Virus genome (UHGV): UHGV-0089979
Reading direction: 5' to 3' (one strand)
DNA from: a virus
Length of the DNA: 17,711 bases
Every line of letters begins with the position of its first letter. Within the stretch, counting starts at the first letter, position 1. Under the pieces are notes generated by a model. That model was not told the DNA's origin and ran no database searches. It saw only the letters and a program-made list of their open reading frames with translations. The translations under genes and the position numbers were made by a program. Positions 1,364 through 17,060 of the stretch are shown here, in pieces.

Positions 1364-1418
1364 TGATACCTCCAGACGCCCAAGAGCGATACGAGCTTAC
1401 ATATTTCATGATATTAAA

Positions 1419-1655
1419 TCACCTGGGTTGTTTGTTTTTCATTGAGGCGACCCAGGCATCTATTGCTTTTCTGTTATACATACATTCACTGGAAGGCTTT
1501 GGATTACCGTCTGGTGATACGTGAATATACTCTCTTCCAACCATCCAGCATTCTTTCCGGGCCCGAAGAATTGTGCCTGGTTTGAGCCCGGTAATTGCGA
1601 TAAGAACGCTTTCACAAACCCATTCATTGGGAGCCAGTTGAATCACATTGCTCAT
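1419..1655 (-). CDS. Excisionase-like small DNA-binding protein (78 aa), resembling lambdoid-prophage YdaQ-type putative excisionases
   Basis: Sits immediately upstream of int on the same strand; ATG at 1655 preceded by GAGGT; size and position fit xis. Family assignment from memory only. Confidence 0.6.
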   Translation of the reverse strand: MSNVIQLAPNEWVCESVLIAITGLKPGTILRARKECWMVGREYIHVSPDGNPKPSSECMYNRKAIDAWVASMKNKQPR

Positions 1656-1657
1656 AC

Positions 1658-1810
1658 ATTACCTCACACAACACTCAGCCCACGGCAGTGGCACCACACT
1701 TCAAACATTCGTTTCACAATTTCACGACAGTAGAAGCCGTCAACATCTCGCGTCAGGTCATAGCGATTGCCGTAACGCTGGCGCACCCATAGCTCAAACG
1801 CTTTATTCAT
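1658..1810 (-). CDS. Small hypothetical protein (50 aa; MNKAFELWVRQRYGNRYDLTRDVDGFYCREIVKRMFEVWCHCRGLSVV)
   Basis: Not in the ORF track (too short); found by manual translation. ATG at 1810 is preceded by AAGGAAG; its TGA stop (1660-1658) overlaps the xis ribosome-binding site, and it starts 4 nt after the stop of the upstream gene. Confidence 0.35.
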
Positions 1811-1813
1811 TCT

Positions 1814-2056
1814 TTACTTCCTTTTCATGGCCCGTAATTTTTTCAGATGAGCTTCCTGCTCTGTTTCTGCCAGAATTTGTCGGTATTCCTGGTGATCAAT
1901 CCGTTCAAACAGTTCATTGAAATCGTTTATTTTTACTGACTGTGTTCGCCCATCCATTCTTCTGTACAACACAGTGTTGTTTATGCAGCGAACAATTTTT
2001 ACCGGGTAACCGGCATTGTCGGTATACAGTTGTCCCTGATTAATCAAAGCGAACAT
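1814..2056 (-). CDS. Hypothetical protein (80 aa; track ORF 1814-2179 trimmed to the internal ATG)
   Basis: The ATG at 2056 (residue 42 of the track ORF) is preceded by AGGAG at 7-nt spacing; the longer N-terminal extension would overlap the neighbouring ORF. Confidence 0.5.
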   Translation of the reverse strand: MFALINQGQLYTDNAGYPVKIVRCINNTVLYRRMDGRTQSVKINDFNELFERIDHQEYRQILAETEQEAHLKKLRAMKRK

Positions 2057-2087
2057 TTTTTCTCCTGCTCTCTGAATAGCGAGAACT

Positions 2088-2459
2088 TCAGAGCCGTATG
2101 TTTGTAGCGGGTTCAATACTGATAATTTCTGCTGAGATAAGCATCCCGGCAAGCCAGAGCTCTCCGGACAGGTCTTCATCCTGGCATATCAGTTCGCCAA
2201 TATTAATGGTGGCCATGATATCTGTTTCCCCTGTACGCTCATCCTCGACTTCTTCATAAGGCAGCGTTGCGTACAGGCTTTCAATAGCGCAACTGATAAC
2301 ATCGAGTCCGGTCAGGTTGCCACCGACAGTGACTTCGAATGTTTCGCGGTATTCCCATAGCCCGAAAGTTAATCGAACGGTTTGTTTTGCCATGCGTCCG
2401 CATGACGTCAGATTTGGGTCATAGTTCATTATTTGCGGTTGAGTATTATGAGTGTTCAT
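2088..2459 (-). CDS. Hypothetical acidic protein (123 aa)
   Basis: Intact ORF with ATG at 2459, in the early-left leftward gene series. No recognisable motif. Confidence 0.5.
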   Translation of the reverse strand: MNTHNTQPQIMNYDPNLTSCGRMAKQTVRLTFGLWEYRETFEVTVGGNLTGLDVISCAIESLYATLPYEEVEDERTGETDIMATINIGELICQDEDLSGELWLAGMLISAEIISIEPATNIRL

Positions 2460-2500
2460 CTGCTTTTCCCTTAGCCCGACGGTCTGCCGGGCATATTAAG

Positions 2501-2834
2501 TTATTTAACCTGGATAAATGGTGTATTGGCACCACTGGTCATGTATTGCGGCAGCGTGCCGTTCCATTTATTGATGGCTTCCAGCTCCACAACACCGGGG
2601 TTCTGACGCAGAGCTTCACCGCGTAAACGAATAGCATCGGCTTCAGCCTGGGCTTTTGTGCGAATCGCATCAGCCTGTCCAGTAGCGACCAACACCGACC
2701 ACTTCACCGACGCCTTTGTCGTCGTCAAGTTTGTTGACTTTGATGCCCACATTACCAGGCTCAACACGATCACAACCGACAAGGCCAATGGCAGGCAGAA
2801 CAATGGCTAAAGAAAAAATAATTTTTTTCATCAT
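2501..2834 (-). pseudogene. Probable remnant of a lipoprotein gene: signal peptide with lipobox in one frame (54 codons, stop at 2675-2673) and a conserved-looking C-terminal tail in the +1 frame
   Basis: Manual translation from ATG 2834 gives MMKKIIFSLAIVLPAIGLVGCDRVEPGNVGIKVNKLDDDKGVGEVVGVGRYWTG-stop (lipobox LVGC). The track ORF 2501-2803 in another frame continues ...VATGQADAIRTKAQAEADAIRLRGEALRQNPGVVELEAINKWNGTLPQYMTSGANTPFIQVK, which looks like the C-terminus of an SPFH/band-7-type protein. The intervening domain is missing. Confidence 0.4.
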
Positions 2835-3076
2835 TTATCCTTGGTGAAAGAAAGCCCCTTATAAATGGCACAAATGCACGGCGGGGTCAGACACGCCAGA
2901 GCAAAACCAGAAATCACTGCTACCGTATCCTTCATTGATATGAGGGCCGAAACGATTAATCCGTAAATGCATGCGATAATTGCCAGTGATATAACTATTT
3001 TGAAATAAATGTTCCTGGTCCTCCTGATGTATTCGGCTTGCCTTATTTAATTGCGTCATGGTTAATTTCGTTTACG

Positions 3077-3469
3077 TCAGAATGGTTTTGTTGCCATCAG
3101 TTCGTAATATCCGGCGCTCCATGTGTCATATTTTCTGAACCATTTTTCTGTATACTGTTTCCTGGCGATGAGTCTGCGCAGTCGTCTGATTGTTCGCTGG
3201 TGTGCGCGGGTATACTCTGTGGTTGATTCTCCTCGTTTCCATATCTCATTCCCGTTGAAGATAAAACGCTTGTCAGGATGGCGCTGTCGGAATCCTGAAC
3301 GTTCAAAAGCGCGGGTGGTCATAAAGAATGCCAGGTAACGAATTGCCGTTTTTCGGGTGAGGCATTTTTTTGTTCTTCCGTGGCGTGTTACAAAAAATAA
3401 CGGGCCGATGGGTGTATCATGTTTCTGTAATGCCTGGTCAATGGCGCTGGCGGTGCGGTTGTCGATCAT
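3077..3469 (-). CDS. Hypothetical basic protein (130 aa)
   Basis: ATG at 3469 overlaps the stop of the upstream ORF (ATGA). Arg/Lys-rich. No family recognised. Confidence 0.55.
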   Translation of the reverse strand: MIDNRTASAIDQALQKHDTPIGPLFFVTRHGRTKKCLTRKTAIRYLAFFMTTRAFERSGFRQRHPDKRFIFNGNEIWKRGESTTEYTRAHQRTIRRLRRLIARKQYTEKWFRKYDTWSAGYYELMATKPF

Positions 3470-5974: not shown

Positions 5975-6664
5975 CTAACCAAATCTGTTTATGTTGAATG
6001 GTACTGATGAGATCACTTTAGACTGGATATAAAGCAGAGCTAACCCCTCTTTTTCGATGCTCCATGGTTGATAATTGGGGTTATCAGATAACACCATGAT
6101 TTTGCTTCCAATTTTTTGAAGCCTTTTCACGTAGCATTCTCCATCAAAACAAAATGCATAAATACCATCGCCATCAAAATAAGTTACTGTCTTATCAAGA
6201 AAAAGAAGGTCGCCAGGTGAGATTGTGGGAGCCATACTGTCTCCTCTGGCGTTACCTATTTCTATATTTTTGAATGCCCGATTTCCAACAAGACGTCGGG
6301 CATATTCAGGATCAAGTTCTATTGAGCGCACTACATCTATCAAGTCACCACGGACATGAGTTCCATCACCGCAACTAAACTCAACATCAAGGACATTAAA
6401 CACGACGCTATCTGTTCTTGTCTGGTGTTTCTCTTGCGAGGAAAAGGTTGGTGAGGAGTCTTCACCTAAGAACCAGGATTGTGGATAACCGCTAATCTCT
6501 GATAAATGCGCGAGCTTATCACTCCGTGGAAATGTTTTTCCTGTTGTCCAGTACTGCACTGATTGCGCACTCACACCTAACTTGCGGGCCAGTTGAGCCT
6601 GAGTCCATCCTTTTGCTTTCAGCATCGCGGCTATTCGATTTTCCGTGTTTTTGACGTTCTTCAT
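5975..6664 (-). CDS. cI: cI-like prophage repressor: N-terminal XRE HTH plus C-terminal S24 (LexA-like) autopeptidase domain (229 aa from the ATG)
   Basis: HTH segment AAMLKAKGWTQAQLARKLGVSAQSVQYWTTGKTFP; C-terminal GDSM (Ser nucleophile) and a downstream YVKRL (Lys) as in LexA/cI. The track start at 6670 is a TTG; the ATG is at 6664. Divergent from the cro-like gene. Confidence 0.85.
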   Translation of the reverse strand: MKNVKNTENRIAAMLKAKGWTQAQLARKLGVSAQSVQYWTTGKTFPRSDKLAHLSEISGYPQSWFLGEDSSPTFSSQEKHQTRTDSVVFNVLDVEFSCGDGTHVRGDLIDVVRSIELDPEYARRLVGNRAFKNIEIGNARGDSMAPTISPGDLLFLDKTVTYFDGDGIYAFCFDGECYVKRLQKIGSKIMVLSDNPNYQPWSIEKEGLALLYIQSKVISSVPFNINRFG

Positions 6665-6797
6665 GACCAAATCCTGTGGGTTTCTTTACAAGGATAAATC
6701 TTTACTTGATTTTAGTGTATTCGATCCTTTTGTAACTTGCATGTTAATTTAAACTTGATGTATTCTTGATTTATAAAGTTAATATTGGTGCTTTGTT
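6665..6797. promoter_or_regulatory. cI/cro divergent control region (oR/pR/pRM-like) with three copies of a CTTGAT(TT) motif
   Basis: 133-bp AT-rich intergenic region between divergent repressor and cro-like genes. CTTGAT occurs at 6705-6710, 6754-6759 and 6765-6770, and the same motif recurs at the promoter near 5859-5875. Confidence 0.5.
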
Positions 6798-7088
6798 ATG
6801 GAAGGAAATGATTACGACAAACTTCGTGCATTAATTGCGCAAAATGCCATAGCGCGAAATCTTGGTGTGACGCCGCAAGCGGTGAATCAGTGGTTTTCAA
6901 AAAGCACAATTCCTGCTCGTTTCGTTTTACGAGTATGTGAAGTAGTTGCATGGAAGGTTACGCCTCATGGCTTAAGGCCAGATCTTTATCCTCACCCTGA
7001 AGATGGAATTCCTAACTTGTTACGCAAAAGCCTAAATCCAAGTTCACCACACAGAGCGGATGGAATACACGCAGGAGATAAACAATGA
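6798..7088 (+). CDS. Cro-like small DNA-binding regulator (96 aa), resembling YdaS-type Cro proteins of lambdoid prophages
   Basis: Divergent from cI; the motif LGVTPQAVNQW...IPARFVLRVCEV...LRPDLYP resembles the YdaS/Cro-like family (from memory); its stop overlaps the next gene start (ATGA). Confidence 0.7.
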   Translation: MEGNDYDKLRALIAQNAIARNLGVTPQAVNQWFSKSTIPARFVLRVCEVVAWKVTPHGLRPDLYPHPEDGIPNLLRKSLNPSSPHRADGIHAGDKQ

Positions 7089-7792
7089 ACATCGCAATTT
7101 TTAACGGCAAAGTATCCATGACCAGCGTTGAAATTGCAGAGCTGGTGGGTAAACGTCATGACAATGTGAAACGCACTATTGAAACATTAGCCAAAGGTGG
7201 CGTTGTCCGGTCTCCTCAAATTGAGGTTTCCGAAAGAATCAATAACTTAGGTTTTAAAGTTCAATATGAGCATTACCTGTTTGAAGGAGAACAAGGTAAG
7301 CGCGACAGCATCATTGTCGTCGCACAGCTCTGTCCTGAATTCACTGCTCGCCTGGTAGATCGCTGGCGCGAACTGGAAGAACAGATCCGTAAGCCAATGA
7401 GCGAAATCGAAATGGTTGCCGCGATGGCTCTTGAAGCAGTTCGTCAGCAGAAACGGATCACTCAGGTGGAAGAAAAAGTCAGCCACGTTGCCGAAACAGT
7501 TGAGCAAATCAAAAAGGGCACCATTCGTGAGGGCTATGCCGGATATCGCCAACTGAAAGCGAAAACCGGTTTGTCAGATGATAAATGCCGCAATCTGGTG
7601 AACGCTTATCAAATTCCTACAGACACCCATGAGTTCATGACGCCGGACGGATTGTTGTCACGTCGCGCAATTGTTGCTGTGGAACCGTTTATGGCTGCTT
7701 TTTATCGGGTTATGGAGGAAGCAGAACCGCGAGGGACTCGCTGGTATCACCCGAAAATGGGGTTATTTCAGGTTATTGGTTGGCAGCGGTGA
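7085..7792 (+). CDS. Rha-family phage regulatory protein (235 aa)
   Basis: The N-terminus MNIAIFNGKVSMTSVEIAELVGKRHDNVKRTIETL matches the characteristic Rha N-terminal signature (from memory). Confidence 0.7.
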   Translation: MNIAIFNGKVSMTSVEIAELVGKRHDNVKRTIETLAKGGVVRSPQIEVSERINNLGFKVQYEHYLFEGEQGKRDSIIVVAQLCPEFTARLVDRWRELEEQIRKPMSEIEMVAAMALEAVRQQKRITQVEEKVSHVAETVEQIKKGTIREGYAGYRQLKAKTGLSDDKCRNLVNAYQIPTDTHEFMTPDGLLSRRAIVAVEPFMAAFYRVMEEAEPRGTRWYHPKMGLFQVIGWQR

Positions 7793-7816
7793 AAAAAAAG
7801 CCGGGAGTAACCCGGC
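7792..7816 (-). terminator. Rho-independent terminator oriented for leftward transcription (GCCGGG-agtaa-CCCGGC stem with T8 on the minus strand)
   Basis: Plus strand: A8 (7792-7799) then gccggg agtaa cccggc (7800-7816). Only the minus-strand orientation has the U tract. It abuts the Rha stop codon. Confidence 0.5.
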
Positions 7817-8015
7817 TCACTCAACATCAATAACGGGGAGCTGTTTCGCATAAAACGGTTCCGAAACATCCAAGAACAGTTCTAAAGATATCAGCAGCTA
7901 TATGATCATTTCAAGACCAAATATTGATTCTGCAATTTCGGGACGTTACACTGTTCAGGCACCTTATAAAGCGGGTGCCGGGATTTGCACCCCGGAATTG
8001 CATACGGCGATATAT

Positions 8016-8035
8016 GACGCGCCAGCGTCTTTTTT
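8016..8035 (+). terminator. Rho-independent terminator on the plus strand (GACGC-gcca-GCGTC followed by TTTTTT)
   Basis: Seen directly at 8016-8035; it lies inside the N-terminal part of track ORF 7902-8564, arguing that this part is non-coding. Confidence 0.5.
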
Positions 8036-8201
8036 ATCGTTCATGCTCGCGCACGCCAGAATTATGGTGGGCTGGGCAGGGGAGCCGAAAGGCTCGCCGG
8101 TTTCCGTATGCGCCGGTAGTGCAAACCCTGTTCAGTCCGCCACCAGCGAGATTTGCACCTCCGGTGGTGGAAGTTATCCATTGCATACGGAGGCTGCCAT
8201 C

Positions 8202-8564
8202 ATGGCTACAGTCCCAACTTCCCCATACCTGAAAATTGAAGTTGTCAACGGCAAGGCCGTTATTTTCTCCCTGCATGTTGCCTGCCACTTTAAGCGCATG
8301 CACCAGAACATCGTCGACAAAATCGAGTATCTGAACTGCTCACGCGAGTTTTTTACCCGCAATTTCATACCGGGTACTTATCACATCTACGGTGACTCCC
8401 TGCGTGGTTATTACATCACCCTTGATGGTCTGATGATGCTTCAGCTTGGGTTAAGTCTGCGCACAATGCGGTACTACGAGAGCTGCATTGAAGCATTCCA
8501 TGAGGCTGAGACCAACCTGAATCACACTGTTTTCCGTCGTAATCAATGGGAGGTGCGCCCATGA
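8202..8564 (+). CDS. Hypothetical phage protein (120 aa); possible regulatory or antirepressor-like N-terminal domain
   Basis: Track ORF 7902-8564 trimmed to the ATG at 8202, which is preceded by GGAGG at 8-nt spacing. The upstream part contains a terminator and repeats and has no ribosome-binding site. Function not confidently assigned. Confidence 0.45.
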   Translation: MATVPTSPYLKIEVVNGKAVIFSLHVACHFKRMHQNIVDKIEYLNCSREFFTRNFIPGTYHIYGDSLRGYYITLDGLMMLQLGLSLRTMRYYESCIEAFHEAETNLNHTVFRRNQWEVRP

Positions 8565-8785
8565 TTCGCCGCGTCGTTAATTCCCTGTATCACCGATACA
8601 ACCGTTGCCCCCGTGTGGGGCAGTGGTTTGCCACCAGCAACGGCCACGTTCTGCGGGTTTGCCTAGTCAACGCTGAAAGCCAGAAAGTCGTGTGCGAACT
8701 ACAGGGGCGTAGCTACACCATCAGTTACCCTATGGCGGTATTTCTGTCTGGAAAAATGTTTAAGCGTCTGGGAGGTGTGGCGTGA
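8561..8785 (+). CDS. Hypothetical protein (74 aa)
   Basis: ATG at 8561 preceded by GGGAGGTG and overlapping the upstream stop (ATGA). Confidence 0.45.
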   Translation: MIRRVVNSLYHRYNRCPRVGQWFATSNGHVLRVCLVNAESQKVVCELQGRSYTISYPMAVFLSGKMFKRLGGVA

Positions 8786-9081
8786 ACTGTTTTCAGTTTG
8801 TGTGCGGATGTGCTTTCGATAACCCGATTCAGCGCCTGATTATGTTGCGTGTTTTGATGTCGGGTTCTTCAGACGGTGAAGGCGAGAGAGTTATTGATCA
8901 TCAGGTGCTTGCTGATTTCTGCTGTTGTTCTAAGCAAGCGATATTCAGGGAAACCCTGGCACTGGAAAGAGCTGGTTATCTTCATATCCGAAAAATTGCA
9001 ACGCTTACTATTGATGCAAAAGCCAGACTACAACCTGCGCGTGGCTACACAATTCTCATGCCGCGGAAGGAGGTTGTATGA
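8782..9081 (+). CDS. Hypothetical protein (99 aa, GTG start), possibly DNA-binding
   Basis: GTG at 8782 preceded by GGAGGTG and overlapping the upstream stop; its own stop overlaps the start of the O-like gene. Cys-rich N-terminus. Confidence 0.4.
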   Translation: MNCFQFVCGCAFDNPIQRLIMLRVLMSGSSDGEGERVIDHQVLADFCCCSKQAIFRETLALERAGYLHIRKIATLTIDAKARLQPARGYTILMPRKEVV

Positions 9082-10055
9082 GCCGTTACGCCCCCACACC
9101 GGAAGTTATGGCTATTGGTCAAATTAATATTTCCGGCAATGTTACACCTGCGAACTGGTGGAAATATATTCGACTACCCAGTGGGCGTCCGGATGCGACG
9201 GCTATCGCTCTGCTTTCAGAGATCGTTTACTGGTACCGCCCGACAGAGGTCAGGGATGAGCACACCGGAGCGTTGCTGGGATATCGCAAGCGTTTTCAGG
9301 GCGACAAACTGCAAAGAAGCTACCAGGCGTTTGCTGAGCAGTTTGGTTTCGGGAAAAGGGAAACCGCAGATGCGCTGAAGCGTCTGCGCGATGCAGGGTT
9401 TATTACTCTGGATTTACGCACGGTGGAAATGCTCGATGGGGTGAAATGCAGCAATATTTTGTTTGTCGGGATCAACCCACAGGCAATTGCGGCCATCACC
9501 ACACCTTCTTCTGTTTCGCCAGAAAGTAACAGCAATAATGCAATCAGCGATACAGCTATTACGTTAAAACGGAACACCCCCCGACGTCATAACGGAACAG
9601 GGGATACGCCGAATGTTGATACAAATACAGAGATTACTACAGAGATTACAACGGAGACTAAAAACACTATTGATGCATCCGCTGACGCGTCTGCGCCAGC
9701 GCGTTCTGCCCGACAGGAATATTCACCGGAATTTGAACAGGCCTGGCAGGAATATCCCAAACGTGCTGGTGGCAATTCCAAGTCAGCAGCCTTCAAAGCC
9801 TGGAAAGCCCGTATCAGGGAGGGAATAAAACCGGAGACCATGCTTGATGGCGTGAAGCGGTATGCCGCCTGGGTACGTGCTACAGGAAATACCGGCACAC
9901 AGTTCGTGAAGCAGGCTGCGACGTTCTTTGGACCCGATCGTCACTTTGACGAATCCTGGCAACAGCCAGCAGCTCCCGGAGGTGGGCGGGGCAAAAGCCT
10001 CCCGATCTCGGGATTCAGTGAGCAGGACTACGGTTCAACGAACTTCAACTGGTGA
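9078..10055 (+). CDS. Replication initiation protein, lambda O-like N-terminal domain (325 aa)
   Basis: The N-terminal region (ALLSEIVYWYRP...FGFGKRETADALKRLRDAGFI) resembles phage replisome-organiser N-domains (from memory). Position directly upstream of the helicase loader and helicase. Central low-complexity linker contains DNA repeats. Confidence 0.7.
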   Translation: MSRYAPTPEVMAIGQINISGNVTPANWWKYIRLPSGRPDATAIALLSEIVYWYRPTEVRDEHTGALLGYRKRFQGDKLQRSYQAFAEQFGFGKRETADALKRLRDAGFITLDLRTVEMLDGVKCSNILFVGINPQAIAAITTPSSVSPESNSNNAISDTAITLKRNTPRRHNGTGDTPNVDTNTEITTEITTETKNTIDASADASAPARSARQEYSPEFEQAWQEYPKRAGGNSKSAAFKAWKARIREGIKPETMLDGVKRYAAWVRATGNTGTQFVKQAATFFGPDRHFDESWQQPAAPGGGRGKSLPISGFSEQDYGSTNFNW

Positions 10056-10074
10056 TTTTTCGAGGTGATGAACA

Positions 10075-10965
10075 ATGTTTGAACAGTTAAAAAAACACTA
10101 CGCACAACACGACAAAGCGCAATTGCTCAACCGCAGGGCGGAACTGGAGGAGGAGATGCAGTTTGCCCGTGCCGGGAAGCGCCCGTGGCGCTGTGAACAC
10201 TGGCTGACAAGCGAGGAAACTGCTGAGTGTGAGAAACACGGGAAATACGCACGTCTGGTGTTGAAAGGGCCTGATGTTCGTGGGGAAACCATCAAACGGG
10301 TTTCTGGTTGCCCGACCTGCATTGCGAATGAACTGGATCAGGTACAGGAGGCGTTACGCATCCTGAAAGTTCATGAATTACTCGACAGGGCTGGTATTGC
10401 CCGCCGCTTCCAGAACTGCGAGTTTGAGAATTATCAGGCGGTGAATGCTGACGCACAGAGAAATCTTGAGGCTTGTCGGCGCTATGCCGGCTCATGGGAG
10501 AAGTGTCTTGCTGCGGGTACCAGCATGATCATGATTGGCAATTGCGGTACCGGGAAAAATCACCTAGCTGTATCAATGGCAAAAAATATTATTCACCACC
10601 ACCTGGCGACTGTCGAAATTACGGATGTCATGCGACTGACCCGCGCTGTGAAAAATACCTGGCGTCACAATTCTGAACGCACTGAAGATGAAGTTATTGA
10701 CCATTTTGTATCGCTGGACCTGCTCATCATCGATGAGGTTGGTGTGCAGTTCGGTACGCCAACAGAGATAACCATCTTGCAGGAAATCATCAATGCACGT
10801 TACGAAAGCGTTTTACCGACAATTTTGATCAGCAATCTGACGTTTGACCAGCTTAAGGAGTCCATTGGTGAACGAATTGTGGATCGCGTTACTGATGGTG
10901 GGCGTAATTGCCTGGTGTTTGGTTGGGAAAGCTACCGTGTACATATCAGAGGTGTGGCAGCATGA
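10075..10965 (+). CDS. DnaC/IstB-like AAA+ helicase loader (296 aa)
   Basis: Walker A GNCGTGKNHLAVS and Walker B LLIIDEVG; N-terminal Cys cluster; immediately upstream of the DnaB-like helicase. Confidence 0.85.
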   Translation: MFEQLKKHYAQHDKAQLLNRRAELEEEMQFARAGKRPWRCEHWLTSEETAECEKHGKYARLVLKGPDVRGETIKRVSGCPTCIANELDQVQEALRILKVHELLDRAGIARRFQNCEFENYQAVNADAQRNLEACRRYAGSWEKCLAAGTSMIMIGNCGTGKNHLAVSMAKNIIHHHLATVEITDVMRLTRAVKNTWRHNSERTEDEVIDHFVSLDLLIIDEVGVQFGTPTEITILQEIINARYESVLPTILISNLTFDQLKESIGERIVDRVTDGGRNCLVFGWESYRVHIRGVAA

Positions 10966-12362
10966 CAAACCAGACAAATCCGGCGTGGCGTAATGATGAC
11001 CTGGAAGGCGCTGTCATTGGTGCGTTTTTTCTGCGAGGGGCAGATCATGAAGTGATGGATATTCTGGCCACGCTTCCGGCGGATGTCTTTTTCGTGCGTC
11101 AGTACAGGGATATTTACGCGGGGATTTGCAGACAGGCCCGCGTATCCGGCGTCATTGACCCCGTGCTGCTGTGCAATGAGATGCCGGAACTTGCCCCGGT
11201 GATTACAGACACCGGGCGTAAAACCTGGGTGAAGTCTTCACTGGAGCACTATGTTGCAGCCTTGCGTCGCAATGCCGCACTGCGTGATGCAGAAAAGACG
11301 CTGAATGAGGCGTTGCAGAAATTACGTGATGCGCATACCTGTGAAGCAGCTGAAGATGCCCTGAAGGATGCGCAGAAAATGATGGCCTCATTGTCGACGG
11401 AAAAGGGCGTTATTCAGCCTGTTCACATTGATGATGTACTTCCGGAAGTGGTCGACCGTGTTGAATGCCGGAATCAGGGACTGGAGAAATCCAGAACGCT
11501 GATGACCGGTATTGATGAACTGGACGCAAAAACAGGCGGCATGGAGCCCGGCGACCTGGTATTTATTGCGGCTCGTCCGTCAATGGGCAAAACCGAACTG
11601 GCGCTGGACATCATCGACAAGGTGACTGAGCAGGGGCATGGCGTGCTTCTGTTCACCATGGAGATGGCGAACATCCAGATTGGTGAACGTATGGTGTCTG
11701 CTGCCGGTGGAATGCCGGTATCCCGTCTTAAGTCTGTTGCCCGTTTTGAAGACGAAGACTGGGCACGCTTCTCACAGGGTGTGGGACGAATGACGGGGCG
11801 TAATATCTGGATGGTGGACCAGGCAAACCTGACCATTGATGAGATATGTGCAACCACGAAGCACCACCGGATGAAACATCCGGAAACGGCGCTGGTGGTG
11901 GTCGATTACCTCGGCCTGATTAAAACCCGCAGCACGGGGCGTCACGACCTTGCGGTGGGGGAAATCTCAAAGGGACTTAAAAGCCTGGCAAAATCCGGCG
12001 GTTTTCCGCTGATTGCTCTGAGCCAGCTCTCCCGCGGCGTGGAATCCAGACCCAATAAACGCCCCATGAACTCGGACCTGAAAAACTCCGGGGAAATCGA
12101 GGCGGATGCCGACATCATTCTGATGCTTTACAGGGATGAGGTATACAACCCGGAAACGCAGGCCGGAGGCATAGCAGAAATCAACATCACGAAACAGCGT
12201 AATGGCACGCTCGGGACCATTTACCGGCGTTTTCATAACGGACATTTTCTGCCTGTGGATCAGGAAAGCGCACAGATTCTTTCCACCCCAATGCAGCAGC
12301 CTCAGCCGCGCAGATACAGCAACAAACGAACTGACAGCAGTAAGATGGAGCGTTTCTTTTGA
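10962..12362 (+). CDS. Replicative DNA helicase, DnaB family (466 aa from the ATG at 10962)
   Basis: Walker A ARPSMGKTELAL, DnaB-like C-terminal motifs (ALSQLSRGVESR, ADADIILMLYRDEVY). The ATG at 10962 overlaps the upstream stop and follows GAGGTG; the track start at 10908 is less likely. Confidence 0.9.
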   Translation: MTNQTNPAWRNDDLEGAVIGAFFLRGADHEVMDILATLPADVFFVRQYRDIYAGICRQARVSGVIDPVLLCNEMPELAPVITDTGRKTWVKSSLEHYVAALRRNAALRDAEKTLNEALQKLRDAHTCEAAEDALKDAQKMMASLSTEKGVIQPVHIDDVLPEVVDRVECRNQGLEKSRTLMTGIDELDAKTGGMEPGDLVFIAARPSMGKTELALDIIDKVTEQGHGVLLFTMEMANIQIGERMVSAAGGMPVSRLKSVARFEDEDWARFSQGVGRMTGRNIWMVDQANLTIDEICATTKHHRMKHPETALVVVDYLGLIKTRSTGRHDLAVGEISKGLKSLAKSGGFPLIALSQLSRGVESRPNKRPMNSDLKNSGEIEADADIILMLYRDEVYNPETQAGGIAEINITKQRNGTLGTIYRRFHNGHFLPVDQESAQILSTPMQQPQPRRYSNKRTDSSKMERFF

Positions 12363-12373
12363 ACAACCAGACA

Positions 12374-12616
12374 ATGACTTTTACCCCTGAACAATTACGT
12401 AAACAGGCACAGGAAATGTTGCGACAGGCGGAACAACTGGAAAAAACAGGTGTAACAAAAGATGCCATTCGTCGGGATATGGTGCCAGCGCTCAGGGAAC
12501 TGATGCAGGCAAAACATCGCGCACAAAAAGCAGTGGATGAGCTGGTGGACTGTGTGGCAGAGCTGGAAACCAAAGTTGGAAAGTTTGAAAAACTGGTGCA
12601 GGAGGTACTGCGCTGA
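12374..12616 (+). CDS. Hypothetical small coiled-coil protein (80 aa)
   Basis: ATG at 12374 (the track start at 12359 is a TTG overlapping the helicase stop); its stop overlaps the Q-like start. Confidence 0.5.
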   Translation: MTFTPEQLRKQAQEMLRQAEQLEKTGVTKDAIRRDMVPALRELMQAKHRAQKAVDELVDCVAELETKVGKFEKLVQEVLR

Positions 12617-12963
12617 TGCGTGATATGTACGAAGTTTTAGATCGTTGGGGGGCTTGGGCTGCAGCAGAAAATAGTGGTGTCGACTGGCAGCCGATAGCGG
12701 CTGGTTTCAAGGGGCTTCTACCACACGGTAAAAAGTCACGTCTCCAGTGCGATGATGATGAAGGAATTATGATTGATGGATGTGTGGCCCGGTTGCGGAA
12801 ATATAAACCAGAAGAATATGAGCTGATCATTGCTCACTTTGTTATCGGGATTTCACTCCGTACAATCGCAAAGAAGCGGAAATGCTCGGATGGAACTATT
12901 AGAAAGGAGTTGCAAACTGCACTTGGATTTATTGATGGTATTATGTGTATTCTAAATAGATAA
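12616..12963 (+). CDS. Short antitermination protein Q-like (115 aa), resembling the DLP12 QuuD type
   Basis: MRDMYEVLDRWGAWAA...AAGFKGLL...CDDDEG..DGCVARL...SDGTIRKEL..GFIDG matches my recollection of the roughly 127-aa QuuD family; C-terminal HTH-like segment. Assignment from memory, not a search. Confidence 0.6.
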   Translation: MRDMYEVLDRWGAWAAAENSGVDWQPIAAGFKGLLPHGKKSRLQCDDDEGIMIDGCVARLRKYKPEEYELIIAHFVIGISLRTIAKKRKCSDGTIRKELQTALGFIDGIMCILNR

Positions 12964-16810: not shown

Positions 16811-16886
16811 GGCCCTTTAGCTCAGTGGTGAGAGCGAGCGACTCATAATCGCCAGGTCGCTGGTTCAAATCCAGCAAGGGCCACCA
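16811..16886 (+). tRNA. tRNA with anticodon CAT, 76 nt including CCA; closely resembles E. coli tRNA-Ile2 (ileX-type, read as Ile after lysidine modification)
   Basis: Cloverleaf built by hand: acceptor stem GGCCCTT/AAGGGCC, anticodon loop CTCATAA (CAT at 16844-16846), T-arm GGTTCAAATCC, 3' CCA. Search tools would probably call it Met. Confidence 0.85.
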
Positions 16887-16893
16887 TCACATA

Positions 16894-16970
16894 CCGCCAT
16901 TAGCTCATCAGGATAGAGCGCCAGCCTTCGAAGCTGGTTGCGCGGGGTTCGAGTCCTCGATGGCGGTCCA
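16894..16970 (+). tRNA. tRNA-Arg, anticodon TCG, 77 nt including CCA
   Basis: Acceptor stem CCGCCAT/ATGGCGG, anticodon stem CCAGC/GCTGG with loop CTTCGAA (TCG at 16928-16930), T-arm CGGGGTTCGAGTCCTCG, 3' CCA. Confidence 0.8.
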
Positions 16971-16983
16971 TTATCTGTACCCT

Positions 16984-17060
16984 GCGTTGTTAGCTCAGCC
17001 GGACAGAGCAATTGCCTTCTAAGCAATCGGTCACTGGTTCGAATCCAGTACAACGCGCCA
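16984..17060 (+). tRNA. tRNA-Arg, anticodon TCT (reads AGA), 77 nt including CCA
   Basis: Acceptor stem GCGTTGT/ACAACGC, anticodon stem ATTGC/GCAAT with loop CTTCTAA (TCT at 17018-17020), T-arm TGGTTCGAATCCAGT, 3' CCA. Confidence 0.85.

What the first reader, a model, noticed from the sequence alone, without database searches (positions are those of the whole stretch)
7982..8190. Three copies of a composite repeat (TTTGCAC..CCGG..CATACGG) flanking an intrinsic terminator in a roughly 400-bp non-coding gap
Copy 1 (direct, 7984-8007) is TTTGCACCCCGGAATTGCATACGG; copy 2 (direct, 8152-8190) is TTTGCACCTCCGG followed by a 19-nt insert and CATACGG; copy 3 (inverted, 8104-8125) reads TTTGCACTACCGGCGCATACGG on the other strand. 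Copy 1 lies just upstream of the plus-strand terminator at 8016-8035 and copy 2 overlaps the ribosome-binding site of the gene at 8202. A hairpin GGCACC-N10-GGTGCC lies at 7958-7979. The arrangement suggests a regulator-binding array or a structured leader RNA (attenuator or small RNA) controlling the downstream gene.
Basis: seen in the sequence. Interest (0 to 1): 0.55.

Follow-up and report, generated by a model that had tools for sequence, protein, structure and literature searches.

The report
IsrK–C4 antisense RNA prophage switch
The three repeats are the matching recognition sequences of a well-known phage RNA switch (the P1 c4, P4 CI and Salmonella IsrK type): a decoy RNA, an antisense RNA and its target on the ribosome-binding site of an antirepressor-like gene in an E. 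coli prophage, so this is an ordinary but unannotated member of a known family.

Summary
TTTGCAC and GCATACGG each occur three times within 210 bp, in the stated order and orientation. The region is two Rfam-recognised RNA genes on the + strand: an IsrK-type sRNA (7959-8035, 63.7 bits) and a C4 antisense RNA (8060-8147, 81.7 bits).

- The inverted copy is the b' hairpin loop and a' linker of C4.
- Copy 2 is a2/b2, and b2 runs into the Shine-Dalgarno sequence of a Rha-family gene (8202-8564).

Phage P1 is annotated with the same layout (a1, b1, c4, a2, b2, icd/ant). P4 and the Gifsy-1 isrK locus also share it.

In 18 near-identical relatives, a and b change in all three places together. Pairing stays at 97-100%, seven pairs per interaction change on both sides, and some G·U wobbles appear.

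RefSeq annotates a 220-aa "ash family protein" across the region. Its N-terminal 100 codons show no coding signature.

Most likely mechanism: C4 blocks translation of the Rha gene, and IsrK competes for C4.

Verdict: a new member of a known kind, of low interest. Side points are the combinatorial a/b specificities, tandem modules in relatives, and a Pfam family that seems to model translated RNA.

The parts
7924..7952 (+). Putative promoter of the module (P_isrK): -35 TTGATT at 7924-7929, 17-nt spacer, -10 TACACT at 7947-7952. The predicted start is about 7958/7959.
   Evidence: Read from the sequence. Conservation among 20 relatives starts abruptly at 7922, the hexamers are invariant or nearly so, and everything upstream diverges, including the ATG at 7902. 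The distance from the predicted start to a1 is 25 nt, the same as in the Gifsy-1 type locus and in P1. The consensus scan did not flag it because it matches only 8 of 12 positions. This part is inferred.
7959..8035 (+). IsrK-type small RNA (77 nt), with a 5' hairpin, a second hairpin that shows a1 in its loop, single-stranded b1, and an intrinsic terminator.
   Evidence: Rfam RF01394 isrK scores 63.7 bits against a gathering score of 50, E 7e-12, over the full model 1-77. One relative (L061) has a compensatory A-U to C-G change in the 5' hairpin.
7958..7979 (+). 5' hairpin of the IsrK-type RNA (GGCACC-N10-GGTGCC).
   Evidence: This is the first helix of the isrK model.
7984..7990 (+). a1 (UUUGCAC), in the loop of the CCGGG/CCCGG hairpin. 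It is complementary to a' of C4.
   Evidence: Three of its 7 pairs show changes on both sides across 18 relatives. The Gifsy-1 compensatory mutants G28/C162 and G31/C159 map to this helix.
8000..8007 (+). b1 (GCAUACGG), complementary to the b' loop of C4.
   Evidence: The helix is 100% paired, with 4 pairs changed on both sides and one A-U to G·U change.
8016..8035 (+). Intrinsic terminator of the IsrK-type RNA (GACGC GCCA GCGUC U6).
8066..8144 (+). C4-type antisense RNA. The Rfam match is 8060-8147. The mature ends 8066 and 8144 are predicted by alignment with the annotated 77-nt P1 C4 RNA, whose 5' end is made by RNase P.
   Evidence: RF01695 C4 scores 81.7 bits against a gathering score of 45, E 4.8e-15, over the full model. 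The RNase P processing of P1/P7 C4 is cited in PMC11143913. Processing in this prophage was not tested.
8103..8111 (+). b' (UCCGUAUGC), in the loop of the second C4 hairpin (stem GCCGG/CCGG).
8119..8125 (+). a' (GUGCAAA), the single-stranded linker between hairpin 2 and the closing stem of C4.
8152..8158 (+). a2 (UUUGCAC), a target site on the mRNA 8 nt after the predicted C4 3' end. It lies in the loop of the possible hairpin 8140-8148/8162-8170.
   Evidence: The helix is 100% paired, with 3 pairs changed on both sides.
8183..8193 (+). b2 (GCAUACGGAGG), a target site that runs into the Shine-Dalgarno GGAGG at 8189-8193.
   Evidence: Eleven pairs with the C4 loop are 100% paired, 4 of them changed on both sides. 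In P1, b2 has the same position relative to the icd start.
8159..8164 (+). CCUCCG directly after a2, a possible anti-Shine-Dalgarno that pairs with CGGAGG at 8188-8193 in the predicted fold.
   Evidence: This rests only on the minimum-free-energy fold of 7950-8215. The columns are nearly invariant (column 202 alone varies), so they give no covariation test of this pairing.
8202..8564 (+). The regulated gene: a 120-aa Rha-family (pRha domain) regulator or antirepressor-like protein, and the first gene of a tightly packed rightward operon that continues into replication genes.
   Evidence: Pfam Phage_pRha E 8e-7, PHROG 995 E 2e-57, TIGR02681. It has a coding signature: variable sites by codon position are 19/18/53, and synonymous codon differences (1448) exceed non-synonymous ones (796).

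Best explanation
The region is an RNA-based secondary immunity or antirepressor switch of the P1 immI / P4 CI / Gifsy-1 IsrK type, sitting in the early-right operon of an E. coli lambdoid prophage.

1. A promoter at 7924-7952 starts transcription near 7959 (inferred).
2. Most transcripts stop at the terminator 8016-8035. This gives a 77-nt IsrK-type RNA that displays a1 in a hairpin loop and b1 as single strand. The structure is shown by the covariance-model match.
3. Read-through transcripts carry the C4-type RNA. It is probably released by RNase P at U8065/G8066 and ends near 8144 (by homology with P1; not tested here).
4. The b' loop and a' linker of C4 pair with b2 and a2 on the mRNA. This covers the Shine-Dalgarno sequence of the Rha-family gene at 8202 and blocks its translation. 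Through polarity it probably also lowers expression of the replication genes behind it. The pairing is shown by covariation. The effect is inferred from P1.
5. The IsrK-type RNA carries the same a/b words as the target, so it competes for C4. In cis it can lock the read-through precursor. In trans it can act as a decoy that relieves repression, as shown for IsrK in Gifsy-1.
For: **RNA families.** Both RNA genes match Rfam above the curated thresholds over their full length.

**Same layout in P1.** Phage P1 is annotated in the order a1, b1, C4 RNA, a2, b2, icd start. Spacing is comparable: a2 lies 4-8 nt after the C4 3' end, and b2 ends about 10 nt before the start codon.

**Same layout in P4.** Its immunity region gives C4 (74.9 bits) and isrK (60.8 bits) in the same order.

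**Covariation.**
- In 83 distinct neighbourhoods from viral contigs, found with a pattern that leaves the loops free, there are 12 a' types and 22 b' types. Complementary words sit at the same positions upstream and downstream.
- In a gapless alignment of 18 close relatives, a1·a' plus b1·b' are 97% paired.
- In the same alignment, a'·a2 plus b'·b2 are 100% paired.
- Seven pairs per interaction changed on both sides. The covariation scores are 0.555 and 0.466, against 0.136 and 0.119 in shuffles and at most 0.10 for slid partners.
- A-U to G·U changes in b1 fit RNA pairing.

**Experimental support in Gifsy-1.**
- Every nucleotide named in PMC4825925 fits the L005-type sequence. The named nucleotides are C18, G28, G31, A107, AUG 119-121, C159, C162 and G173.
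- orf45 is 45 codons long, and its TGA overlaps the next ATG.
- The experimentally compensatory pairs G28-C162 and G31-C159 are therefore a1·a' pairs.
- IsrK in trans activates translation of the downstream antirepressor more than 100-fold.

**Downstream genes.** In homologous loci they are antirepressor-type: pRha, ORF6N with or without P22_AR_C, Bro-N, Derepression, and Icd-Ant.

**Fold.** The read-through RNA folds far better than shuffles (z = -5.7), with a1/b1 paired to a'/b'.
Against: - There are no expression, processing or binding data for this locus or for its E. coli relatives.
- The promoter is weak by consensus (8 of 12 matches) and was not flagged by the scan.
- The c4-a1b1 covariance model scores only 16.7 bits here, against a gathering score of 46.7.
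- Standard co-folding predicts no net gain for C4 with either partner. It cannot model loop-loop contacts.
- The reading frame 7902-8564 is open in every close relative. An AUG at 8064 is in frame with the 8202 start. Some translation through the RNA region therefore cannot be excluded.
- Whether IsrK mainly acts as a decoy in trans or as a cis lock is not decided by sequence. The same holds for whether the main output is a translation block or transcription polarity.
Confidence: 0.87

Rival explanations
1. The repeats are binding sites for a DNA-binding regulator: an operator array in the intergenic region that controls the gene at 8202.
For: Three copies in direct and inverted orientation sit near a promoter-like site and a gene start. 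Several HTH and Rha regulators are encoded nearby. Joint change of all three copies would in principle also fit a co-evolving protein.
Against: - The inverted copy falls exactly on the unpaired loop and linker of a full-length C4 RNA match.
- Copies differ from each other where G·U pairing with C4 is kept. Examples are b1 GCUCGAGG against b2 GCUCAAGG, and CAAUAUAG against CAACAUAG.
- The a and b words reassort, giving 10 of 12 possible combinations on one backbone. A protein reading of the sites would have to change specificity to match each combination; this was not tested.
- The homologous P1, P4 and Gifsy-1 systems are RNA-RNA systems.
Confidence: 0.02
2. The region is protein-coding as annotated in RefSeq: a 220-aa "ash family" protein (7902-8564) with an N-terminal Ash domain and a C-terminal Rha domain. 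The repeats would then be incidental to the coding sequence.
For: - PGAP annotates WP_000587257.1 over 7902-8564.
- Pfam Phage_ASH matches residues 16-108 at 53.7 bits, against a cut-off of 26.
- The frame has no stop in any close relative.
- In tandem modules of relatives, the long ORF starts at an ATGA overlap with the previous stop.
Against: - Codon-position variability in 7959-8201 is flat (17/17/12), and non-synonymous codon differences outnumber synonymous ones 1151 to 216. The part from 8202 onward shows 19/18/53 and 1448 synonymous against 796 non-synonymous.
- Conservation starts only at 7922, downstream of the ATG at 7902.
- An intrinsic terminator and two Rfam RNAs lie inside the supposed domain.
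- A second + frame (7924-8232) is also open.
- In the P1-like and Gifsy-like groups, stops separate the RNA region from the gene.
- The P1 c4 region, translated with 2 stops, still matches Phage_ASH end to end at E 0.0099.
- The old P4 "cI gene product" ORF matches Phage_ASH at E 4e-16 over the CI/C4 RNA. P4 immunity is described as an RNA made from an untranslated transcript.
Confidence: 0.06
3. The RNAs are the same, but the main output is P4-like. C4 pairing with the upstream and downstream sites would cause premature transcription termination or Rho-dependent polarity. This would gate the whole downstream operon (Rha gene, replication initiator, DnaC-like and DnaB-like genes) rather than chiefly the Rha protein.
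For: - The P4 immunity region gives the same two Rfam matches in the same order.
- P4 CI RNA is described as causing termination by pairing with seqA and seqC, which prevents expression of replication genes.
- Here the genes from 8202 to 12362 overlap or abut and include replication functions.
- IsrK in trans raised transcription of the Gifsy-1 fusion 8-fold as well as its translation.
Against: b2 covers the Shine-Dalgarno sequence as in P1, which points to a translation block as the first event. No terminator is evident just after b2, apart from a weak candidate at 8247-8261. This reading is compatible with the best explanation rather than exclusive of it.
Confidence: 0.3
4. The IsrK-type RNA is mainly a trans-acting Hfq-dependent sRNA for host mRNAs, and its similarity to a2/b2 is secondary.
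For: Rfam describes isrK as an Hfq-binding RNA. It has a terminator U-tail typical of Hfq sRNAs. Prophage sRNAs with host targets are common in pathogenic E. coli, according to the papers listed.
Against: The variable words of IsrK track the C4 loops of the same module in every variant. This is what is expected if C4 is its partner. No host target was sought or found here.
Confidence: 0.08

Closest known systems
Phage P1/P7 immI operon: a1/b1, c4 antisense RNA, a2/b2, icd, ant1/2 (Citron & Schuster 1990; Rfam RF01695)
   Same: The order and spacing of all six recognition elements are the same. The C4 fold is the same, with b' in the hairpin-2 loop and a' in the following linker. b2 lies next to or over the Shine-Dalgarno sequence of the first gene. 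There is a terminator-like hairpin between b1 and C4. A promoter lies about 25 nt upstream of a1. Different a/b words give different specificities.
   Different: - The host element is a chromosomal lambdoid prophage with a CI/Cro-type immunity region, not a P1 plasmid prophage.
- The first regulated gene is a 120-aa Rha-domain protein, not Icd followed by Ant.
- The operon continues into replication genes.
- The a1/b1 part matches the isrK model, not the c4-a1b1 model.
- The a and b words themselves differ.
Salmonella Gifsy-1 isrK - orf45 (STnc1160) - anrP locus (Hershko-Shalev et al. 2016, PMC4825925; Rfam RF01394)
   Same: An IsrK sRNA has its own terminator and read-through into a C4-like RNA region and an antirepressor-type gene. 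The a1·a' pairing corresponds to the experimentally proven helix b-I (G28-C162, G31-C159). The module sits in a lambdoid prophage.
   Different: - In Gifsy-1 a 45-codon ORF through the C4 region ends at the anrP start, giving translational coupling. Here the equivalent AUG (8064) is in frame with the Rha gene and no stop intervenes.
- The regulated protein has an ORF6N domain there and a pRha domain here.
- The Gifsy-1 authors did not describe STnc1160 as a C4 homologue. They compared IsrK with P4 seqA.
Satellite phage P4 immunity: seqA, CI RNA (seqB), seqC
   Same: The P4 region gives C4 (74.9 bits), isrK (60.8 bits) and c4-a1b1 (44.1 bits) matches in the same order. An obsolete ORF over the RNA matches Pfam Phage_ASH, as it does here.
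   Different: P4 CI RNA is reported to act by premature transcription termination that shuts off replication genes. Here the geometry around the Shine-Dalgarno sequence resembles P1. The mechanism in this prophage was not tested.
APSE phages of Hamiltonella: c4 and isrK RNAs next to a BRO-N gene (PMC7313666)
   Same: The two Rfam families occur together beside a KilA-N/Bro-type gene in a temperate phage. The a'/b' words match the region upstream of that gene.
   Different: The host and the phage lineage differ. That case is known from annotation only and is not experimentally studied either.

Membership tests
C4 antisense RNA (Rfam RF01695; P1/P7 c4, P4 CI) | Sequence and secondary structure match the family covariance model at or above the curated gathering score. 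| tested here: met
   81.7 bits against 45, E 4.8e-15, model positions 1-87 of 87, at 8060-8147 on the + strand.
C4 antisense RNA (Rfam RF01695; P1/P7 c4, P4 CI) | Two unpaired words (b' in the hairpin loop, a' in the linker) are complementary to a2/b2 just downstream on the same strand, with b2 at the ribosome-binding site of the next gene. | tested here: met
   a' 8119-8125 pairs with a2 8152-8158. b' 8103-8111 pairs with b2 8183-8193, which overlaps GGAGG. Pairing is 100% in 18 relatives, with 7 pairs changed on both sides.
C4 antisense RNA (Rfam RF01695; P1/P7 c4, P4 CI) | A second set of complementary words (a1/b1) lies upstream on the same transcript. | tested here: met
   a1 is 7984-7990 and b1 is 8000-8007. 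Pairing is 97%, with 7 pairs changed on both sides.
C4 antisense RNA (Rfam RF01695; P1/P7 c4, P4 CI) | The RNA is released from a longer precursor by RNase P and represses the downstream antirepressor operon in trans. | not testable with these tools
   Only homology is available. The conserved UUAU|GGUGGG 5' end and GCCACC 3' end align with the annotated mature P1 RNA. RNase P processing of P1/P7 C4 is cited.
IsrK sRNA (Rfam RF01394) | The covariance model is matched at or above the gathering score, including two 5' hairpins and an intrinsic terminator. | tested here: met
   63.7 bits against 50, model positions 1-77 of 77, at 7959-8035. The terminator was also found by the independent scan.
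IsrK sRNA (Rfam RF01394) | It acts on its own read-through mRNA by pairing with the C4/orf45 region, and it binds Hfq. | not testable with these tools
   Complementarity and covariation are shown. Activity and Hfq binding are known only for Gifsy-1.
c4-a1b1 motif (Rfam RF03163) | The covariance model is matched at or above the gathering score. | tested here: not met
   16.7 bits against 46.7, E 0.11, at 7946-7998. P4 scores 44.1. The a1/b1 words are present, but this sequence belongs to the isrK-type version of the upstream element.
Ash protein family (Pfam PF10554), as annotated by PGAP | The profile HMM is matched above the gathering score. | tested here: met
   53.7 bits against 26, residues 16-108 of the 7902-8564 ORF.
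Ash protein family (Pfam PF10554), as annotated by PGAP | The matched stretch evolves as a protein-coding sequence. | tested here: not met
   Variable sites by codon position are 17/17/12, with 216 synonymous against 1151 non-synonymous codon differences. The Rha part shows 19/18/53 and 1448 against 796. The ATG at 7902 lies outside the conserved block. The stop-containing P1 c4 region and the obsolete P4 cI ORF match the same profile.
Antirepressor-type regulated gene (Ant / KilA-N / Bro-N / Rha group) | The gene directly behind b2 encodes a protein of this group. | tested here: met
   Phage_pRha E 8e-7 and PHROG 995 E 2e-57. Homologous loci carry ORF6N, Bro-N, P22_AR_C, Derepression or Icd-Ant. 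Antirepressor activity itself was not tested.

The most novel reading that the evidence does not exclude
The a and b words form a combinatorial address code. On one nearly identical backbone, 3 a-types and 4 b-types occur in 10 of 12 possible combinations. This happens although the six sites are interleaved (a1 b1 ... b' a' a2 ... b2), so each swap needs coordinated changes at three separated places. Related prophages carry two or three complete modules in tandem with mutually non-matching words. E. coli genomes hold up to six matching places. If both words are needed for recognition, selection would be keeping co-resident switches orthogonal, or letting them cross-talk on purpose. That would form an RNA network that decides which prophage in a polylysogen can be derepressed.
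Probability: 0.3. Interest if true: 0.5.

Novelty: new member of a known kind. Interest (0 to 1): 0.2.

Why it matters
The finding gives a correct functional annotation for a region present in about a quarter of complete E. coli genomes, and in Stx-converting phages. There it is currently labelled as a protein ("ash family protein") or left blank.

It places an RNA-level control upstream of an antirepressor-like gene and the replication genes of these prophages. That is relevant to prophage induction, including induction of Shiga-toxin phages.

It also links four systems usually described separately as one architecture: P1 c4, P4 CI, Gifsy-1 IsrK/STnc1160, and the APSE RNAs. None of this is conceptually new.

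Tried and rejected
- **Duplex and co-fold energies.** I computed them for C4 with the target and with IsrK. Co-folding gave no net gain, and duplexfold was only marginally better than shuffles. Neither handles loop-loop contacts within folded RNAs, so I relied on covariation instead.
- **Run-length complementarity statistic.** A version that allowed G·U pairs, with cross-pairing of flanks as a control, discriminated poorly. The loops share conserved flanks, and UUUCC pairs with GGAGG everywhere. I replaced it with column-wise pair counts on a gapless alignment.
- **Promoter scan.** It did not flag the proposed promoter. The assignment rests on position and conservation only.
- **Literature on E. 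coli prophage sRNAs.** The Pas sRNA preprint and the StxS paper do not describe this locus.
- **P1 genome paper.** It is not held in the library. The P1 anatomy was taken from the GenBank annotation instead.
- **Protein-operator reading and coding reading.** Both were considered and rejected, as set out under the rival explanations.
Full report
**Observation.**
- Copy 1 is TTTGCAC-CCCGGAATT-GCATACGG at 7984-8007.
- Copy 2 is TTTGCACCTCCGG at 8152-8164, then 19 nt, then CATACGG at 8184-8190.
- Copy 3 is the reverse complement at 8104-8125.
- A hairpin lies at 7958-7979.
- A + strand intrinsic terminator lies at 8016-8035.
- The downstream gene has GGAGG at 8189-8193 and ATG at 8202.

The repeat finder recovers all the direct and inverted pairs. 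GCATACGG occurs three times in the 17.7-kb window, all three here, against 0.39 expected. TTTGCAC occurs five times, three of them here. The cluster is not chance.

**What it is.** A scan of the window against Rfam gives two full-length matches above the curated thresholds on the + strand. One is isrK (RF01394) at 7959-8035, at 63.7 bits. The other is the C4 antisense RNA (RF01695) at 8060-8147, at 81.7 bits.
- Copy 1 is inside the IsrK-type RNA. TTTGCAC is the loop of its second hairpin, and GCATACGG is in the single-stranded spacer.
- The inverted copy is the two unpaired parts of C4. UCCGUAUGC is the loop of hairpin 2, and GUGCAAA is the linker that follows.
- Copy 2 lies just behind C4 and runs into the Shine-Dalgarno sequence of the next gene.

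**Comparison with P1.** The GenBank record of phage P1 annotates this anatomy in the same order. The features are putative a1 and b1 target sites, the 77-nt C4 RNA, target sites a2 and b2 ("repression of icd ant translation"), then icd and ant1/2.

In P1 the words are TTGACAG (a) and GTTAGTG(A) (b). Their complements sit in the hairpin-2 loop and the linker of C4. The spacing matches the window. a2 lies a few nucleotides after the C4 3' end. b2 ends about 10 nt before the start codon. a1 lies about 25 nt from the transcription start.

**Context.** The window is an E. coli lambdoid prophage.
- It is identical to NZ_CP035860.1.
- It is 94% identical to several Stx2a-converting phages and 93% identical to phiP27.
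- Matches occur in 1325 of 5426 complete E. coli genomes, with up to six places per genome.

The gene order, is:

| Coordinates | Strand | Gene |
|---|---|---|
| 5975-6670 | - | CI-like repressor |
| 6798-7088 | + | Cro-like |
| 7085-7792 | + | Rha/Ant-like |
| 7922-8201 | + | the RNA module |
| 8202-8564 | + | 120-aa Rha-domain protein |
| from 8561/8546 | + | small protein |
| up to 12362 | + | replication initiator, DnaC-like and DnaB-like genes |
| 12616-12963 | + | Q |

**Evidence from relatives.** I searched viral contigs with a pattern from the 5' part of C4 that leaves the loops free. Of the distinct neighbourhoods, 83 parse as C4. They carry 12 different a' linkers and 22 different b' loops in 36 combinations. 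In nearly all of them the complementary words are found at the same relative places upstream (a1, b1) and downstream (a2, b2).

Eighteen close relatives of the window align without gaps (alignment A1). On that alignment:
- a1·a' plus b1·b' are 97% paired;
- a'·a2 plus b'·b2, including the extension over the Shine-Dalgarno sequence, are 100% paired;
- each interaction has seven pairs changed on both sides, covering 55 cells;
- the covariation scores are 0.555 and 0.466, against 0.136 and 0.119 in shuffles;
- sliding the partner by 1-3 columns gives at most 0.10.

In several relatives b1 differs from b2 by an A-to-G change that keeps a G·U pair with C4. This fits RNA-RNA pairing and not a repeated DNA site.

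**Link to experiments.** One of the retrieved types (L005) reproduces every nucleotide named in the Gifsy-1 IsrK study: C18, G28, G31, A107, AUG 119-121, C159, C162 and G173. It also has a 45-codon orf45 whose TGA overlaps the next ATG. Three consequences follow.
- The compensatory mutant pairs G28A/C162U and G31A/C159U, which define helix b-I of the translationally silent "structure A", are a1·a' pairs.
- The region called orf45/STnc1160 in that paper is the C4-type RNA.
- The paper shows that IsrK supplied in trans raises translation of the downstream antirepressor gene more than 100-fold, and that the locus matters for Gifsy-1 induction.

Its authors compare IsrK with seqA of P4. The P4 immunity region does give C4 (74.9 bits), isrK (60.8 bits) and c4-a1b1 (44.1 bits) matches in the same order. 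APSE phages were also reported to carry both RNA families next to a BRO gene.

**Mechanism proposed.**
- A promoter (TTGATT-17-TACACT, 7924-7952) lies at the exact point where conservation among relatives begins. It starts transcription near 7959.
- Most transcripts end at 8035 as the IsrK-type RNA.
- Read-through produces the C4 precursor and the mRNA.
- By alignment with P1, mature C4 would be 8066-8144, with the 5' end made by RNase P.
- C4 pairs with a2 and b2 and covers the Shine-Dalgarno sequence, blocking translation of the Rha-family gene.
- By analogy with P1 and P4, this probably also reduces expression of the downstream replication genes through polarity or termination.
- IsrK carries the same words as the target and therefore competes for C4, in cis within the precursor or in trans as a decoy. 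The minimum-free-energy fold of 7950-8215 pairs a1/b1 with a'/b' (z = -5.7).

What is shown here: the RNA family matches, the complementarities, and their covariation. What is inferred: the promoter, the processing, the direction of the effects, and the antirepressor role of the Rha protein. In homologous loci the regulated genes are pRha, ORF6N with or without P22_AR_C, Bro-N, Derepression or Icd-Ant proteins. This supports an antirepressor-type output.

**Is the gap non-coding?** RefSeq annotates a 220-aa "ash family protein" over 7902-8564. Pfam Phage_ASH matches residues 16-108, which is the two RNA genes. Four observations argue against a protein here.
- Among close relatives, the stretch 7959-8201 has flat variability by codon position (17/17/12), with 1151 non-synonymous against 216 synonymous codon differences.
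- By contrast, 8202-8564 shows 19/18/53, with 796 non-synonymous against 1448 synonymous.
- The ATG at 7902 lies in unconserved sequence upstream of the conserved block.
- In the P1-like and Gifsy-like groups, stops separate the RNA region from the gene.

Two further results concern the Pfam profile itself. The P1 c4 region, translated through two stops, still matches Phage_ASH over the whole profile (E 0.0099). The obsolete P4 "cI gene product" ORF matches it at E 4e-16 over the CI/C4 RNA. The Ash profile therefore appears to model a conceptual translation of these RNA genes.

One point remains open. The frame has no stop in any close relative. The conserved AUG at 8064, which is the first AUG of orf45 in Gifsy-1, is in frame with the 8202 start here. 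Translation through the leader cannot be excluded.

**Verdict.** The element is an unannotated member of a long-known family of phage RNA immunity switches. Nothing about its anatomy departs from P1, P4 or Gifsy-1 except the kind of regulated protein and the in-frame leader.

The most interesting residue is evolutionary. The a and b words reassort almost freely on one backbone, although the six sites are interleaved. Relatives also carry two or three tandem modules with non-matching words.

Noticed in passing
window 7902-8564; P4 locus L124 1669-2085 (-): RefSeq/PGAP calls the ORF across the two RNA genes an "ash family protein". Pfam PF10554 (Phage_ASH) matches exactly the translated IsrK plus C4 region. 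It also matches the obsolete P4 "cI gene product" ORF that overlies the CI RNA, and more weakly the stop-containing P1 c4 region. The family looks like a conceptual translation of RNA genes.
   Followed up: partly
window 8064-8204: The conserved AUG in the C4 5' end (UUAUGG, the first AUG of orf45 in Gifsy-1) is in frame with the ATG at 8202, with no stop between them. This holds in all close relatives. In Gifsy-1 the 45-codon ORF stops at the next gene's start instead. An N-terminally extended Rha isoform or a translated leader is possible. The predicted RNase P cut (8065/8066) would split this AUG.
   Followed up: partly
L013 (reverse strand, 1383-3361 of the reverse complement) and L077 (454-1776): Related prophages carry three (L013) or two (L077) complete promoter-IsrK-C4-Rha modules in tandem. 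The L013 words are TCGCAG/GATCAAGG, TTGGCGT/CAACATAG and TTGGAAC/GCATACGG, all mutually non-matching. The two L077 modules share b but differ in a.
   Followed up: partly
alignment A1 and the matrix (window-like backbone): Three a-types and four b-types occur in 10 of 12 possible combinations on a backbone that is 93% identical. The six sites are interleaved (a1 b1 b' a' a2 b2), so a simple single crossover cannot exchange one word set alone. How the coordinated triple changes arise is unexplained.
   Followed up: no
window 7791-7914, minus strand: A minus-strand terminator (stem 7818-7798, then a T-run) overlaps the stop codon of the 7085-7792 gene. It lies about 65-70 nt downstream of the -10 hexamer of a minus-strand promoter-like site (TTGAAA-18-TATCTT, 7914-7885). 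This would give an antisense RNA of roughly 90 nt, placed like lambda oop RNA. The fold z-score is -2.2, and only sub-threshold Rfam matches were found, driven by the terminator.
   Followed up: partly
window 8546-8785: The next gene probably starts at the ATG at 8561 (MIRRVV...), which overlaps the Rha stop codon as ATGA, rather than at 8546. Relatives start their homologue with MIRR(I/L)VNSLYHRY, and tandem modules reuse this ATGATTCG junction.
   Followed up: partly
window 16811-17060: A cluster of three tRNA genes (Met-CAU type, Arg-UCG, Arg-UCU) lies on the + strand, about 3.8 kb downstream of the Q antiterminator gene. This is an arrangement known from Stx-converting and related lambdoid phages.
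   Followed up: no
window 7085-7792: The gene just upstream of the module is itself a Rha/Ant-like protein (PHROG 63 anti-repressor Ant, E 2e-48). It has no C4 module of its own in front of it and lies directly behind the Cro-like gene.
   Followed up: no
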